Part shown: piece by piece, positions 9,482 to 60,115 of the stretch
How positions within the stretch are numbered: the stretch's first letter is position 1
How the letters are laid out: every line of letters starts with the position of its first letter
Notes under the pieces: generated by a model
The model's input: the letters and a program-made list of their open reading frames with translations, nothing else
The model's database searches: none
Told to the model about the DNA's origin: nothing
Virus record (IMG/VR): IMGVR_UViG_3300031414_000001
Coordinates: 304,437 to 368,436 of that record
DNA from: a virus
Taxonomy: Duplodnaviria > Heunggongvirae > Uroviricota > Caudoviricetes
Length of the DNA: 64,000 bases
Reading direction: 5' to 3' (one strand)
Made by a program: the position numbers and the translations under genes

Positions 9482-9733
9482 TCAATCGCCATTCATGAAT
9501 TGAATTGCCATTGTGTCACCTACTATACCGCCACCAAACGCACTACACATCGCTATCGAGCAATCATCGTCCTGTTCAGCTTTGGCTTTCTCTAAACGCT
9601 TCTGCTCTGCCTGGATTTGACTATATGGCGTTACCCTTGCTGGTTCTGGCTTAGGCTCATGGATAGAAATCAACAGAATTTCACCAGCAAAGAATAAAAC
9701 TACAAGTGCAAAAGCAATACAGAATTGTTTCAT
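9482..9733 (-). CDS. small membrane protein
   Basis: N-terminal hydrophobic helix. Confidence 0.7.
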   Translation of the reverse strand: MKQFCIAFALVVLFFAGEILLISIHEPKPEPARVTPYSQIQAEQKRLEKAKAEQDDDCSIAMCSAFGGGIVGDTMAIQFMNGD

Positions 9734-9742
9734 AATTGTTCC

Positions 9743-10105
9743 TTAGATAAGTACTGAATTATCGAACACACAAACACCGTTCTCAAATACATTCTTACCA
9801 TCGCTAACCATGTAACGGGAAGTATTGGTTACAGTATCAATCAATAGAAGAATACTATTCTTCGTGTATTGTGATTTGTAAGTAATAGCGATAGCAGTAC
9901 CGCTAACTTGTTCACCAGCATTGTAGTACTTCTCAGCACCGAATACAAATGAACCATCATTAGTGTTCGCCTGTACATGCGTCACAGATGGTTTAGTACC
10001 TTCTTTGATACAGTTCAGATTATATACGCCAGGTGAAGGATTAACTTCAGCAGTACTGAAGAATGAAGCACCCAGCAGGGCAATACCTAAAAGTAACTTT
10101 CTCAT
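9743..10105 (-). CDS. secreted/periplasmic hypothetical protein
   Basis: signal-peptide-like MRKLLLGIALLGASFFSTA. Confidence 0.7.
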   Translation of the reverse strand: MRKLLLGIALLGASFFSTAEVNPSPGVYNLNCIKEGTKPSVTHVQANTNDGSFVFGAEKYYNAGEQVSGTAIAITYKSQYTKNSILLLIDTVTNTSRYMVSDGKNVFENGVCVFDNSVLI

Positions 10106-27460: not shown

Positions 27461-27541
27461 TGAGTACAATAGGGGTTTCACCTACACTGACGACCAGCAT
27501 TACCTGTTAAAATCGCTGCTCTATAATTAAGCTATATACTC
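27461..27541 (-). ncRNA. tRNA-like RNA with aberrant anticodon arm
   Basis: acceptor GAGTATA/TGTACTC, D arm GCTT/GAGC, T arm GTAGG-TGAAACC-CCTAT, enlarged anticodon region. Confidence 0.55.
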
Positions 27542-31923: not shown

Positions 31924-32234
31924 TTCTTTTTTGCCTTATGCTTAGCAATATTATTTTGAATCTCACCATAGTAAAGTACTTTACCACGTGGAGCATCATC
32001 TTTGTTATGACGAGTTCTGGCTGAACTAGTATGCTTATTACCAGCACCTAACTTATCACACCACCGCATCATTTCACGACATATCCAACCAATGTCAGAA
32101 CGTAGTTCACATGCCATTTCATCGCTGAATTTACCATTAACAAATAGTCTTGCATGCCAACGGTTCTTAATCTTAGTTACTTTAATATCAGTACTGGATT
32201 CAGTACTTAATAACATTTGTCTACTACGTTTCAT
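31920..32234 (-). CDS. hypothetical protein
   Basis: ORF. Confidence 0.7.
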   Translation of the reverse strand: MKRSRQMLLSTESSTDIKVTKIKNRWHARLFVNGKFSDEMACELRSDIGWICREMMRWCDKLGAGNKHTSSARTRHNKDDAPRGKVLYYGEIQNNIAKHKAKKK

Positions 32235-32793
32235 TAGTATTCTTCCAATTTAATACGTATTGATGTACTTGTTCTTCAATCAAATATTTAAAGTCACTAT
32301 GCATATATTGATGATGGGTAGGACATAAAGGAACTAAGTTTGCTGGATCATTGTTATGATGGTTTTCATCATAATGATGAACCGAAACTATATTTTCTTC
32401 TGAACATACAACACACTTTTTAGTATGATGATGGAAGCAAATAGTACGATATGTTTTAGTACTATTGTTATTCCCATCAGCTATTGCTTTTTGGTGGCTT
32501 CCATTGTTAATACCACTTCTAAAATATGTATTAGAACAAGAATGTGAACATGTCACTTTTGATTCAATTTTACGCTCCATGAATTCTTTATCACATACTG
32601 GACAAATTCTAAATTCATAAACTTTCATCTTGAATTCATAATCTAAATCAACATCTAATGCTGATAGTTTGCATTTAATGTCTCTTATCATTCTAGAATT
32701 AGGATTACGTGAATATCCAAGAGATTCATAAAAATCACCTTTTGTTTTACTTTCACTAATAATTTCTAGTATTTCTAATTTTGTCAAATCCAT
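32224..32793 (-). CDS. HNH homing endonuclease with Zn-finger, tRNA-associated
   Basis: CPVCDKEF..CSHSC; CVVC..VHHYDENHHNNDPANLVPLCPTHH; very AT-rich; directly 3' of tRNA-Pro. Confidence 0.85.
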   Translation of the reverse strand: MDLTKLEILEIISESKTKGDFYESLGYSRNPNSRMIRDIKCKLSALDVDLDYEFKMKVYEFRICPVCDKEFMERKIESKVTCSHSCSNTYFRSGINNGSHQKAIADGNNNSTKTYRTICFHHHTKKCVVCSEENIVSVHHYDENHHNNDPANLVPLCPTHHQYMHSDFKYLIEEQVHQYVLNWKNTNET

Positions 32794-32848
32794 TTGAAAA
32801 TCTCCATATCGTTTAAGATATTTATCATTTTCATTGGATTTGAATCTG

Positions 32849-32922
32849 TCGGAGTGGTAGGATTTGAACCCACGGCTTTTCCGCCCCAAACGGAACACTC
32901 TACCAAACTGAGCTACACTCCG
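32849..32922 (-). tRNA. trnP: tRNA-Pro(UGG) copy 1
   Basis: cloverleaf CGGAGTG/CACTCCG. Confidence 0.95.
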
Positions 32923-36214: not shown

Positions 36215-36541
36215 TTATTTGGTCTTAAGTTCTGCTACTACAGCAGCAACTAAGTCCGGTGTAAAATCAATGCCGAAAACTTCGGAATAATGTTTTACTG
36301 TACCTTCATAACCATGACGCTTTTCATTCAAGCGATAACGCAATTCCATAATCGCATTGTCATAGTTAAACCAAGGATTGTTTTGACTCGCATTCAAGCG
36401 ACCCCAATCAGTCAATGGTACGAAACCTTCATCAGCAGACTTACCCCGAAGAATATTATAGATAATATGCTCGTGTACAGTGTGCTCTTTTTCCAGTTTC
36501 CAGGTTGTTTTTACAGTAATGAATTGTTCTTTGGTCAACAT
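36215..36541 (-). CDS. hypothetical protein
   Basis: ORF with AAGGA RBS. Confidence 0.8.
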   Translation of the reverse strand: MLTKEQFITVKTTWKLEKEHTVHEHIIYNILRGKSADEGFVPLTDWGRLNASQNNPWFNYDNAIMELRYRLNEKRHGYEGTVKHYSEVFGIDFTPDLVAAVVAELKTK

Positions 36542-36660
36542 AGTATGTTCCTTTTGGATAGTAATTAATTTAGTGTTTTGTTCTGAATTAACTTTATCCG
36601 GTGGACCAGTACTGAATTTCTATAGCATCATAAGATTTACCTTTTGTTTGTTTATGTTAG

Positions 36661-39806: not shown

Positions 39807-39928
39807 CGAGAAAGGTTGGACTCGAACCAACGACCAGGCCATTAAAAGTGGATGAAGTATGGTTGCTGAGAAATTACAGTACTGTAATTTTGGGTTTCTA
39901 CCTGCTCTACCAACTGAGCTACTTTCTC
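39807..39928 (-). tRNA. tRNA(UUU)-like gene with 49-nt CAGCAA insertion in anticodon stem
   Basis: removing the insert restores GGCCA-CTTTTAA-TGGCC and a 73-nt cloverleaf. Confidence 0.75.
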
Positions 39929-49760: not shown

Positions 49761-49829
49761 TTCTGTACCCTCATTGATTAAGAGATAGTACTATATCATA
49801 CCGCTTCGTTCCCGTCAAGGAAAATTTAG

Positions 49830-49906
49830 TGCAAGGGGATGGACTCGAACCATCGACACGGAGTTATACTAAGATAATCTTGCTCTACCGTCTGAGCTAC
49901 CCTTGC
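49830..49906 (-). pseudogene. tRNA with aberrant enlarged anticodon arm (TAG-like loop)
   Basis: perfect acceptor, D and T arms; 21 nt instead of 17 in the anticodon arm. Confidence 0.65.
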
Positions 49907-56296: not shown

Positions 56297-56407
56297 GGTG
56301 CTAAGAACAGGATTCGAACCTGTAAGGAAGCCTCGCGGTACTTCCCACGTCCTATTGTCGCTTTCGCTATCGTCAGACGCTACGTTTACCAATTCCGTCA
56401 TCTCAGC
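56297..56407 (-). ncRNA. class II tRNA-like RNA with 24-nt anticodon loop and 23-nt variable arm
   Basis: GCTGAGA/TCTTAGC, Leu-type D arm, GCGTC/GACGT stem, canonical T arm. Confidence 0.7.
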
Positions 56408-56408
56408 G

Positions 56409-56473
56409 TGGCGGGGATATTCCGCACCCTACTCTGCGTTGGAAGCCAAAGGGTGTTATCGGCTATATGCCCC
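56409..56473 (-). pseudogene. degenerate mini-tRNA-like sequence ending G-CCA
   Basis: GGGG(C)ATA/TATCCCC-G-CCA; TTCCAAC loop; no proper T arm. Confidence 0.3.
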
Positions 56474-56580
56474 ATAGTGTTTGGTGAGAAAGGTTCAGGC
56501 TACCTTGAATAGAATACAGGACTTAAGTGCAAGTTGCTGAACTCTTACACACCCTCATTTCATCGGTTCTTTCTCATTTG

Positions 56581-56653
56581 TGGCTCATACCAGATTCGAA
56601 CTGGTGTGGACAGAGATTTAGAGTCTCCCGCTACGCCTCTCAGCTAATGAGCC
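56581..56653 (-). tRNA. amber suppressor tRNA (anticodon CUA)
   Basis: intact cloverleaf GGCTCAT/ATGAGCC, GGAGA-CT-CTA-AA-TCTCT, canonical T arm. Confidence 0.92.
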
Positions 56654-56737
56654 ATTCATTCATTTGATACGTTTATTATACCAGAGTTTTCGAAGTCGTT
56701 CCAGCTTTTTTTCAAAAATTTTCACGACTTCAATCAC

Positions 56738-59160: not shown

Positions 59161-59207
59161 AAGGATGTTACCTTAAAAAAAGCACTCCCGAAGAAGTGCT
59201 GTTTTTG

Positions 59208-59774
59208 TTATTTAGGTAAAGAGTTTAAGTACCTCTTACCCGCCTGGATAAGTTTCTTCTTTTTGATTTTAAAAGAAGTACTATCCTGTCCACCAAACAT
59301 TGTACAGTTCGCAAGGATTTCAGCCCAAGCAGTTATATACAGAGTAGGTGCTAAAGGATCAGTCCAGATAGTATCAAAGTCTTCTGACTTAGCCATATGG
59401 AATGTCATATCTTTACGCATCAATTCTGAAATAACTGATTCTTCAGGAAATAGGTGCATCCACACATCAGCACTAACATTAGCGTGGTCGGGGAAGTGAA
59501 CCTTTCCTTCGTCATCAACAGTACGACACAATGGTTTACCACAATCATGATATTCTTGATAACGCAGTACAATATCATCTGGCAGAATCTTATCTTTGAT
59601 TTTGCCATATACTTCAAGAAGTACAGGATCGCCCTATCCAGTATCTAATTCAGAGATCAGTACTTTATACTGTTCCTGAACCATAAGACCATGTGCGTGA
59701 ACACTAAGACCTTTCATCTGTTCGGTAGTCTGCATTACATGAAGTAGTTCTTCGAAAGTGTTAGGATAAATCAT
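59208..59774 (-). CDS. HD-domain phosphohydrolase-like protein with in-frame TAG (codon 47)
   Basis: ATG 59774 overlaps upstream stop; VHAHG...TAG(59634-59636)...YHDCGKP...HFPDHA..S. Confidence 0.75.
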
Positions 59775-60115
59775 TTAGCACCTCCGCGAAACAATTGAAA
59801 TTTCTTGAAGATACTACGCTGTTCAGCGGTTACTGGAGCACTAGCAAAGGCAGTAAAGCCATAATCCCAATCAGGTTCATGGAACTGGACAAATCCAATA
59901 CCAGAATCTTTGAGTTCATCATATGCTTTTTGTAACTTATGTTTATTCTTACATGAGATAACAATCAGAGAACTAGTCTCAGTACTGTTATTTTCGAAGG
60001 CCAAGCCGCTTTCATAAGCTGCGTGGTTTGATTGTACCACAATTTGTTCTAACGGTAAGTCCGTGCGAACAAATACGTAGATCCAAGTTTTTTCATTCTA
60101 GTGAGCCATTTTCAT
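59771..60115 (-). CDS. PTH2-like peptidyl-tRNA hydrolase with in-frame TAG (codon 6)
   Basis: GAGGAA-ATG AAA ATG GCT CAC TAG AAT...WIYVFVRTDL...VQSNHA...FHEPD..TA. Confidence 0.75.

What the first reader, a model, noticed from the sequence alone, without database searches (positions are those of the whole stretch)
56581..56653. Intact amber suppressor tRNA (CUA)
Seen: complete cloverleaf with loop CU-CUA-AA, immediately downstream of a class 2 promoter (56675-56703). Among genes whose stops I checked, TAG ends only the mobile HNH gene (TAG TAG) and two small ORFs whose stops lie inside tRNA genes. The amino acid identity is unclear (G1-C72, C3-G70, A73, 6-nt variable loop).
Basis: partly seen in the sequence, partly recalled or inferred. 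Interest (0 to 1): 0.75.

Follow-up and report, generated by a model that had tools for sequence, protein, structure and literature searches.

The report
Suppressor tRNA with dedicated amber-gated genes
A jumbo phage that uses the normal genetic code carries a genuine UAG-reading tRNA, and its probable job is to read conserved in-frame UAG stops in two neighbouring genes for tRNA-end enzymes, which would give these unexplained phage suppressor tRNAs a target.

Summary
The tRNA is real. ARAGORN and Rfam (53.7 bits) place a 73-nt cloverleaf with loop CU-CUA-AA at 56581-56653(-).

- **Gene B**, a PTH2-fold gene, opens SD-ATG-GCT-CAC-TAG. No other start codon precedes its conserved core.
- **Gene A**, an HD-like gene, has TAG at codon 47 inside one confidently folded domain (pLDDT 97).

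Both TAGs are invariant in GAP32, CBB, BF, fHe-Yen9-04, XbC2 and Kaldavass, with synonymous-dominated change on either side.

In 80 IMG/VR loci of the family:
- 65 need TAG read-through.
- CUA is the commonest anticodon nearby (55 of 547 tRNAs), always on the same strand.
- Two loci with a TGA leader carry tRNA(UCA) and no CUA tRNA.
- RaK2 and Hallingskeid lack both the TAG and the tRNA.

The phage is not recoded genome-wide. About nine ORFs still end in TAG, and I found no release factor and no GlnRS- or LysRS-type synthetase.

The best reading is a suppressor-gated pair of genes. Nothing is experimental, and the inserted residue is unknown and probably unimportant. I found no paper describing this. 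Earlier agents of this scan noted the same cassette on other DNA.

The parts
56581..56653 (-). tRNA with anticodon CUA (amber-suppressor type), class I, A73, no encoded CCA
   Evidence: ARAGORN, Rfam 53.7 bits, structure. Identical in XbC2 and Kaldavass, with a syntenic but diverged Sup-tRNA in GAP32, CBB, BF and fHe-Yen9-04.
56675..56703 (-). Promoter-like site: extended -10 TGGTATAAT (56675-56683) and weak -35 TGGAAC (56698-56703), about 20 nt upstream of the tRNA
   Evidence: Sequence. TGNTATAAT is enriched, 14 against 4.2 expected, with 13 on the - strand. The generic sigma-70 scan did not call it.
59771..60115 (-). Gene B, a PTH2-fold peptidyl-tRNA-hydrolase-like protein. The likely start is the ATG at 60107-60109, which has a GAGGA Shine-Dalgarno, and the in-frame TAG is at 60098-60100 (codon 4 from that ATG). 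No ATG, GTG or TTG lies between the TAG and the conserved first strand.
   Evidence: ORF lists, leader alignment of 12 phages, Pfam PTH2 E 0.005, AF2 pLDDT 93.4, Foldseek 3erj/2zv3/1q7s with TM up to 0.79, synonymous-dominated divergence after the TAG.
59208..59774 (-). Gene A, an HD-superfamily protein resembling the C-terminal tRNA-binding part of class II tRNA nucleotidyltransferase. The in-frame TAG is at 59634-59636 (codon 47). Its ATG overlaps the TGA of gene B (ATGA).
   Evidence: tblastn finds one piece covering residues 1-188 in 29 phages. TAG is conserved in 7 relatives and is Val in Arash and ME3. AF2 pLDDT 97.3, one domain, with residue 47 in a loop. PDB profile hit 3wfp E 3.5e-4, Foldseek 3wfo-3wfs TMq 0.66, phrog_14850 spans the TAG, purifying selection on both sides.
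59181..59200 (-). Terminator-like hairpin plus T-run just after gene A
36215..36631 (-). Possible third target: SD-ATG-(ATG)-CTA-TAG leader (TAG at 36620-36622), then 27 codons in frame with a 108-aa ORF of unknown function that also has its own ATG and SD
   Evidence: Genome-wide leader scan. ATG CTA TAG is invariant in GAP32, CBB, fHe-Yen9-04 and BF. It is in frame with the main ORF in four of the five phages and frame-shifted in BF.

Best explanation
The tRNA(CUA) is a functional phage amber suppressor, and its conserved role is to decode a few programmed in-frame UAG codons in the phage's own tRNA-region genes.

Inferred steps:
- The tRNA is transcribed from an extended -10 promoter and trimmed.
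- It is given CCA by the host enzyme or by the phage's own CCA-adding enzyme.
- It is charged by a host synthetase.
- It competes with host RF1 at UAG.

Shown by sequence:
- Gene B (PTH2 fold) begins SD-ATG-GCT-CAC-UAG-AAU..., so a full-length protein requires read-through at codon 4.
- Gene A (HD-like, start overlapping B's stop) requires read-through at codon 47.
- Both UAGs sit at structurally permissive places: an N-terminal tail and a loop.
- Both are followed by a purine.

The two proteins would therefore be made only, and in limited amount, while the suppressor is expressed, matured and charged. That makes this a translational gate on a pair of tRNA 3'-end enzymes. Which amino acid is inserted probably does not matter.

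The purpose of the gate is inference. It could be a timing or licensing signal that phage tRNAs are ready. It could also be a dosage or feedback control on enzymes that would be harmful in excess.
For: - The tRNA is real and conserved in synteny.
- In-frame TAGs occur in B and A only in this genome's tRNA region. They are invariant in seven Mimasvirus and Eneladusvirus genomes, while flanking codons change mostly at third positions: A before the TAG 3/2/14, A after the TAG 22/14/56, B 6/5/39 against fHe-Yen9-04.
- Gene A folds as one domain across the TAG, with pLDDT 97.3.
- The SD-ATG-1 or 2 codons-TAG leader recurs in every TAG-bearing distant homologue examined: Arash, ME3, RsoM2USA, pT24, XacN1, RAS14, Xoo-sp13 and LR756511.
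- Among 80 IMG/VR loci, 65 need TAG read-through. CUA is the commonest of 547 flanking tRNAs (55), all on the same strand, at a median of 690 nt. Of the 46 TAG-needing loci with any tRNA in the flank, 39 have a CUA tRNA.
- Covariation: L187 and L194 have an ATG-x-TGA leader and a tRNA(UCA) but no CUA.
- Negative controls: RaK2 and Hallingskeid homologues have no in-frame TAG, and those genomes have no tRNA(CUA).
- pT24 has only three tRNAs, one of them CUA, 2.6 kb from its B-A fusion.
- Internal TAGs arose at several different positions of A and B in different lineages.
- The base after a leader TAG is A in 47, G in 8, C in 1 and T in 0 of 56 contexts. The nine presumptive TAG terminators of this genome are followed by T in six cases.
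- TAG stops make up 2.1% here, against 6.2% and 6.8% in suppressor-less RaK2 and Hallingskeid (Fisher p = 1.2e-3 and 2.6e-4).
Against: - Nothing is experimental. Expression, charging and suppression are all unshown.
- My ORF calls are crude: 483 ORFs against roughly 590-660 annotated features in relatives.
- The co-occurrence counts are not phylogenetically independent.
- 26 of the 65 TAG-needing loci show no CUA tRNA within 10 kb. 19 of those 26 have no tRNA at all in the flank, so the gene may lie elsewhere.
- TAG-stop avoidance is not general among suppressor-bearing phages: pT24 11.7%, RsoM2USA 5.8%.
- The suppressor differs strongly even within the genus (window type against GAP32 type, 71% identity). 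It could therefore have been replaced, and nothing shows it is charged in the host.
- The biological reason for gating is unknown.
Confidence: 0.78

Rival explanations
1. The tRNA is a general-purpose suppressor, serving as insurance against amber mutations or as a means to disturb host termination. On this view the in-frame TAGs in B and A are incidental lesions in decaying genes.
For: The literature treats such tRNAs this way and reports no targets (PMC5852040; PMC8386662). TAG is depleted as a stop in this genome.
Against: The TAGs are invariant across two genera, while the codons on both sides evolve under purifying selection. The same leader recurs in dozens of distant phages. The stop type covaries with the anticodon, TGA with UCA. 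Gene A models as one intact domain.
Confidence: 0.08
2. ATG-x-TAG is a two- or three-codon minigene or leader peptide. The main ORF is translated by re-initiation or from a non-canonical start, independently of the tRNA.
For: The codon after TAG is ATT, a rare start codon, in 27 of 56 leader contexts. For the 36.6-kb candidate and for XacN1, a normal ATG follows the TAG.
Against: In this window the TAG is followed by AAT GAA AAA ACT TGG, with no ATG, GTG, TTG or ATT before the conserved strand. AAC and AAT follow the TAG in 16 contexts. Re-initiation cannot explain TAG at codon 47 of gene A, whose first 46 residues carry invariant residues and belong to the fold. It explains neither the tight linkage to tRNA(CUA) nor the TGA/UCA swap.
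Confidence: 0.07
3. The phage uses a reassigned code (TAG as sense, 'code 15'), at least for part of its genome, as in crAss-like, Lak and some huge phages.
For: A suppressor tRNA is present, TAG stops are rare, and some relatives of the cassette come from huge-phage assemblies (LR756511).
Against: Only two genes, or three counting the 36.6-kb candidate, show in-frame TAG with coding signal on both sides. About nine ORFs still end in TAG, with a TAA or TGA 0-13 codons downstream in eight of them. I found no RF-1 or PCRF domain and no GlnRS- or LysRS-type synthetase. All 94 ORFs of 300 aa or more end in TAA or TGA and are intact under code 11.
Confidence: 0.03
4. The tRNA gene is a silent or non-chargeable relic.
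For: It has no encoded CCA and an unusual 6-nt variable loop, no clear parent isoacceptor (best 73% to several), and no match in E. coli genomes.
Against: The cloverleaf is perfect. The sequence is identical in three phages whose flanks differ by about 5%. Forty-three of the 48 unique cassette-linked CUA tRNAs keep 7 of 7 acceptor pairs despite very different sequences. The phage encodes a CCA-adding enzyme, and most of its tRNA genes lack CCA.
Confidence: 0.04

Closest known systems
Stop-codon recoding in phages with phage-encoded suppressor tRNAs (TAG read as sense, 'code 15'; crAss-like, Lak and huge phages; e.g. PMC13037316, PMC12386605)
   Same: A virus-encoded tRNA(CUA) lets phage genes containing in-frame UAG be translated in a host that uses the standard code.
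   Different: Here only two genes, or three counting the 36.6-kb candidate, carry in-frame UAG, at fixed regulatory-looking positions (codon 3-4 of a leader, or surface loops). TAG still ends other genes. There is no phage release factor or synthetase. The targets are tRNA-end enzymes next to the tRNA, not late structural genes.
prfB (RF2) autoregulation through an in-frame UGA early in its own gene (established knowledge)
   Same: An early in-frame stop codon makes the yield of a translation-related protein depend on the balance between termination and its alternative at that codon.
   Different: prfB uses a +1 frameshift and senses RF2 itself. Here the alternative is decoding by a dedicated tRNA, and no feedback from B or A onto suppression has been shown.
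Annotated 'Sup-tRNA' / 'tRNA-Pyl(CTA)' of GAP32, CBB, BF, fHe-Yen9-04, XbC2, XacN1 and RsoM2USA
   Same: The gene is of the same kind. It is syntenic in the first five of these phages and identical in XbC2 and Kaldavass.
   Different: Those records and papers give no target. The XacN1 paper states that none could be found. All of those records split gene A and truncate or omit gene B.
Archaeal/eukaryotic peptidyl-tRNA hydrolase Pth2 (PF01981; 3erj, 2zv3, 1q7s)
   Same: Gene B has the Pth2 fold (TM up to 0.79) and the VR-DL...Q..VQ..HA N-terminal motif.
   Different: It scores below Pfam's cut-off (17.4 against 23 bits). Activity and substrate are unknown. It is always paired or fused with the HD-like gene A.

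Membership tests
tRNA (Rfam RF00005) | Covariance-model score above the gathering threshold, with a full cloverleaf | tested here: met
   53.7 bits against 29 over model positions 1-71. ARAGORN cloverleaf with a 7-bp acceptor stem and canonical T-loop.
Amber suppressor tRNA | Anticodon CUA in a 7-nt loop with U33 and a purine at position 37 | tested here: met
   Loop C-U-C-U-A-A-A.
Amber suppressor tRNA | In-frame UAG codons in genes that need read-through | tested here: met
   Gene B codon 4 and gene A codon 47, conserved.
Amber suppressor tRNA | Aminoacylated and able to insert an amino acid at UAG in vivo | not testable with these tools
   This needs an acid-gel Northern or tRNA-seq, a reporter assay and mass spectrometry.
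tRNA-Pyl (ARAGORN's label) | tRNA-Pyl architecture: 6-bp anticodon stem, 3-nt variable loop, tiny D-loop without G18G19, atypical T-loop (recalled from established knowledge) | tested here: not met
   5-bp anticodon stem, 6-nt variable loop, D-loop AGAGGCG with GG, T-loop TTCGAAT. The label follows from the anticodon only. pylS was not searched for.
Code-15 phage 'code-change module' | Many genes interrupted by in-frame TAG | tested here: not met
   Two genes with clear in-frame TAG, plus one candidate leader.
Code-15 phage 'code-change module' | Phage release factor (RF2) and/or a synthetase accompanying the suppressor | tested here: not met
   PF00472, PF03462, PF00749 and PF00152 are all absent from the genome, which CheckV rates 100% complete. 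Other synthetase families were not searched.
PTH2 (PF01981), for gene B | Pfam score at or above the gathering cut-off | tested here: not met
   17.4 bits against 23.
PTH2 (PF01981), for gene B | Pth2 alpha/beta fold | tested here: met
   Foldseek 3erj E 6.7e-5, TM 0.79; also 2zv3, 1q7s, 1xty.
HD-superfamily phosphohydrolase, for gene A | H...HD...H...D metal-binding motif, conserved | tested here: met
   Invariant H28, H76, D77, H97, D122 and H126 in 53 sequences. Foldseek secondary hits are to HD hydrolases 1xx7, 2cqz, 2pq7 and 6zpa. There is no Pfam hit at E < 0.1.

The most novel reading that the evidence does not exclude
The cassette is a self-referential translational circuit. A virus-encoded suppressor tRNA licenses synthesis of two tRNA 3'-end enzymes (PTH2-like and HD-like). 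These enzymes in turn act on aminoacyl- or peptidyl-tRNAs, possibly including the suppressor itself or the di/tripeptidyl-tRNA waiting at the leader UAG. Read-through, or tRNA-end repair and deacylation, would then be held at a set point. That would be a tRNA-based analogue of RF2 autoregulation, spread across many large phages.
Probability: 0.2. Interest if true: 0.85.

Novelty: new variant of a known kind. Interest (0 to 1): 0.72.

Why it matters
Suppressor tRNAs are annotated in many standard-code jumbo phages, and published genome papers could not find what they suppress. The XacN1 paper says so explicitly.

A conserved, position-specific target makes the question directly testable with a reporter, a tRNA knockout and mass spectrometry. 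The supporting features are:
- UAG at codon 3-4 of a PTH2-like gene.
- UAGs inside its HD-like partner.
- Linkage to the tRNA on the same strand.
- A natural UGA/UCA swap in two loci.

It also has practical consequences:
- It corrects the annotation of these genes. They are currently split or truncated in GenBank records and in PHROGs (phrog_26054 and phrog_34073 are fragments).
- It points to a natural orthogonal translational switch.
- It links phage tRNA clusters to enzymes that act on tRNA 3' ends.

Tried and rejected
- **Parent tRNA in E. coli.** blastn of the tRNA against E. coli genomes found no match.
- **Parent tRNA in the phage.** Pairwise identity to the phage's 31 other tRNAs was at most 73% and spread over Tyr, Met, Leu, Lys and Arg, so it is uninformative. 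The amino-acid identity stays open. The absence of a long arm argues against Ser, Leu and Tyr, and C3-G70 argues against Ala. A73 with U35 fits Lys better than Gln, by recalled identity rules only.
- **Fixed-pattern search for CUA tRNAs.** It missed the known one in RsoM2USA, so I replaced it with whole-genome ARAGORN.
- **The search for related loci with the gene B alignment.** It failed for lack of a conserved stretch. The gene A alignment worked.
- **Conserved 70-nt element at 56409-56478.** An Rfam E-value search of 56330-56590 found nothing.
- **Leader-like ATG ATA TAG at 49791-49799.** Rejected as a target because a good SD-ATG follows 10 codons later.
- **In-frame pair at G000 263642-264379.** Read as two separate genes, since the second has its own start.
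- **The 'HNH' label for the TAG-TAG ORF.** Pfam did not reproduce it.

Full report
**Setting.** The window is bases 304437-368436 of a 370,971-bp virus record. CheckV rates the record 100% complete. GC content is 38% and there are 32 tRNA genes.

Megablast and tblastn place the phage among the Mimasvirus and Eneladusvirus jumbo phages of Enterobacterales. The relatives are XbC2, Kaldavass, GAP32, CBB, BF and fHe-Yen9-04.

- ARAGORN finds a tRNA with anticodon CTA at 56580-56653(-).
- Rfam's tRNA model scores 53.7 bits at 56581-56653(-) against a threshold of 29.
- No CCA is encoded. That is true of most tRNA genes of this phage, and the phage has a CCA-adding-enzyme gene at G000 172085-172447.
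The generic scan does not call it. The extended -10 motif is nevertheless three-fold enriched in the window and almost exclusively on the coding strand.
- ARAGORN's label 'tRNA-Pyl' comes from the anticodon alone. The architecture is not that of tRNA-Pyl.

**Stop-codon usage.** I made my own ORF call, using codon-usage scoring and a greedy non-overlapping choice. It gives 483 ORFs.
- Stops are TAA 396, TGA 77 and TAG 10.
- All 94 ORFs of 300 aa or more end in TAA or TGA.
- The TAG share (2.1%) is about a third of that in RaK2 (6.2%) and Hallingskeid (6.8%). Those two jumbo phages have no suppressor tRNA and were analysed with the same script. Fisher p is 1.2e-3 and 2.6e-4.
- TAG avoidance is not universal among suppressor-bearing phages: pT24 has 11.7% and RsoM2USA 5.8%.

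Two of the ten 'TAG-terminated' ORFs run on in frame into coding sequence. One is simply followed by the next gene. The other (59634-59774) continues for 141 codons with no start codon nearby. Reading TAG through gives two adjacent genes on the tRNA's strand, about 2.5-3.5 kb upstream of it in the direction of transcription.

*Gene B (59771-60115):*
- It opens GAGGA-N8-ATG GCT CAC TAG AAT GAA AAA ACT TGG ATC TAC GTA TTT GTT CGC.
- There is no ATG, GTG or TTG between the TAG and the conserved first beta-strand. The standard-code ORF would start 25 codons later, inside the fold.

*Gene A (59208-59774):*
- Its ATG overlaps B's TGA.
- It has TAG at codon 47.
- A terminator-like hairpin follows it.

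**These are intact genes, not wrecks.**
- tblastn with gene A read through finds a single 188-residue alignment in 29 phage records. In the close relatives the annotation splits it into two to four 'hypothetical proteins'.
- The TAGs of both genes are identical in XbC2, Kaldavass, GAP32, CBB, BF and fHe-Yen9-04.
- Against fHe-Yen9-04, nucleotide differences by codon position are 3/2/14 in A before the TAG, 22/14/56 in A after it and 6/5/39 in B. This is the signature of purifying selection on both sides.
- AlphaFold2 models full-length A as one compact helical domain (pLDDT 97.3, pTM 0.92), with residue 47 in the loop between helices 25-44 and 50-62.
- B is modelled at pLDDT 93.4.

**What the two proteins are.**
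- *Gene B* has the Pth2 peptidyl-tRNA-hydrolase fold. Foldseek gives 3erj at TM 0.79, then 2zv3 and human Bit1 1q7s. Pfam PTH2 scores E 0.005, below the cut-off.
- *Gene A* carries invariant H...HD...H...D...H residues. Its profile hits the C-terminal part of a class II tRNA nucleotidyltransferase (3wfp, E 3.5e-4). Foldseek ranks the same entries first (TMq 0.66), followed by HD hydrolases.
- The two are fused in either order in pT24, XacN1, RAS14 and Xoo-sp13, and phrog_14850 is such a fusion profile. They very probably work together on tRNA 3' ends.

**The link to the tRNA.**
- In all twelve phages first examined, the first gene of the pair or fusion begins SD-ATG-(1-2 codons)-TAG. The same holds for RAS14, Xoo-sp13 and the 595-kb uncultured phage LR756511.
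- A tRNA(CUA) lies within a few kb in nine of the eleven fetched loci.
- Whole-genome ARAGORN finds one in RsoM2USA, pT24, RAS14 and Xoo-sp13. pT24 has only three tRNAs in all.
- The XacN1 paper reports two CUA suppressor genes per terminal repeat.
- RaK2 and Hallingskeid have gene B homologues without any in-frame TAG, one with a normal ATG and one as a fused domain. Their genomes have no tRNA(CUA).

**Wider survey.** A scan of IMG/VR with the gene A alignment returned 80 loci with 10-kb flanks.
- 65 need TAG read-through. A leader of this type occurs before B in 54 and before A in 25. An internal TAG occurs in A in 16 and in B in 2.
- Most of the other 15 also have a TAG just upstream but fail my strict criteria.
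- Among the 547 tRNAs in these flanks, CUA is the commonest anticodon (55; next is CAU with 33).
- All 55 are on the genes' strand, at a median of 690 nt, and 39 lie within 1.5 kb.
- Two loci have the same leader built with TGA: ATG GAA TCG TGA before B in L187, and ATG TCA TGA before A in L194. Both carry a tRNA(UCA) and no tRNA(CUA). This is a natural compensatory swap.
- Internal TAGs sit at several different positions in different lineages, equivalent to residues 31, 47, 49 and 51 of A and 38 and 43 of B. They therefore arose repeatedly.
- The base after the leader TAG is A in 47 of 56 unique contexts, G in 8, C in 1 and never T. This genome's presumptive TAG terminators are followed by T in six of nine cases. 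From established work on amber-suppression context (recalled, not checked here), a 3' purine favours suppression.

**Not a recoded genome.**
- Only these two genes, plus one candidate, show coding signal on both sides of a TAG.
- There is no RF-1 or PCRF domain, and no tRNA-synt_1c or tRNA-synt_2 domain, anywhere in the genome.

**The candidate third target (36215-36631).**
- It has an invariant ATG CTA TAG leader, 29 nt downstream of tRNA-Gly, in window, GAP32, CBB, fHe-Yen9-04 and BF.
- The following 27 codons are in frame with the main ORF in four of the five, but frame-shifted in BF. The main ORF also has its own SD-ATG.
- I leave it as possible.

**Amino-acid identity.**
- No parent isoacceptor can be named.
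- The suppressors of GAP32, CBB, BF and fHe-Yen9-04 have a completely different acceptor stem from the window/XbC2/Kaldavass type.
- The 48 unique cassette-linked CUA tRNAs are all class I, but their discriminators vary: A 25, G 13, U 8, C 2.
- Where relatives have a sense codon at A's position 47 it is Val, in a loop.
- Taken together, the inserted residue is probably not important. For this tRNA, Lys or Gln are the classical outcomes for class I amber suppressors with U35. This is recalled knowledge and was not tested.

**Mechanism.**
- *Shown by sequence and comparison:* a bona fide tRNA(CUA); conserved in-frame UAGs in two intact, selected genes beside it; co-occurrence, same-strand linkage and stop/anticodon covariation across many phages.
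- *Inferred:* the tRNA is expressed, charged by a host enzyme and outcompetes RF1 at these purine-followed UAGs. B and A would then be made only while it is active.
- *Speculative:* why this is so. The options are licensing (make tRNA-end enzymes only once phage tRNAs are working), dosage limitation, or feedback if B or A act on aminoacyl- or peptidyl-tRNA.

**Literature and earlier scan notes.**
- Full-text searches found no paper linking phage suppressor tRNAs to a PTH2-like or HD-like target.
- The XacN1 paper states that in-silico read-through found no targets. The RsoM2USA and phiKp24 papers only speculate.
- The scan's own index shows that other agents reported the same amber-gated PTH2-like cassette on other DNA. 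I treat these notes as agreement, not as evidence.
- What this window adds is the second gated gene (A, codon 47) in the Mimasvirus/Eneladusvirus clade, the suppressor-less control genomes, the UGA/UCA swap and the 3'-context contrast.

Noticed in passing
window 49829-49906 (-): A tRNA-like gene (Rfam 46.9 bits) that ARAGORN can only fold with a four-base 'anticodon' ttag in an oversized loop. It may be a tRNA-Leu(UAG) with a distorted anticodon arm, a frameshift-suppressor-like tRNA or a pseudogene.
   Followed up: partly
window 49791-49799 (-): A minigene-like ATG ATA TAG lies 30 nt downstream of that odd tRNA, in frame with a 99-codon ORF that has its own good SD-ATG 10 codons later. It is probably not a read-through target.
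   Followed up: partly
window 39807-39928 (-) and 27461-27541 (-): Rfam tRNA matches (46.1 and 40.9 bits) that ARAGORN did not call. The first is 122 nt long and may contain an intron or insert.
   Followed up: no
window 56409-56478: A 70-nt stretch 95.7% identical in Yersinia phages fHe-Yen9-03 and -04, where nothing is annotated. Kaldavass annotates a 109-nt 'tRNA-Arg' over it. Rfam finds no family at E <= 1.
   Followed up: partly
L187:9291-9367 and 9543-9560; L194:2335-2412 and about 9809-9820: IMG/VR relatives in which the leader stop is TGA and the nearby suppressor-type tRNA has anticodon UCA.
   Followed up: yes
RAS14 genome 302428-302502; also locus L209: A tRNA with the ochre-type anticodon UUA, in addition to tRNA(CUA), in phages that carry the cassette.
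   Followed up: no
L012 (RaK2) about 2965-2990: The suppressor-less RaK2 homologue of gene B has CAT TAG GTA AAC AAT ATG just before its normal start. This may be a relic of an ancestral ...His-TAG leader.
   Followed up: no
G000:C1:172085-172447 (-), outside the window: The phage encodes a class II nucleotidyltransferase (PolyA_pol/CCA-adding head domain, 70.6 bits) in a 386-aa open frame.
   Followed up: partly
window 32224-32898 (-): An ORF ending in TAG TAG that overlaps tRNA-Pro at its 5' end.
   Followed up: partly
PHROGs phrog_26054 (46 aa) and phrog_34073 (77 aa): These families are annotation fragments: the part of gene A before its TAG, and the part of gene B after an internal GTG. 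The full proteins match phrog_14850 and phrog_1866.
   Followed up: yes
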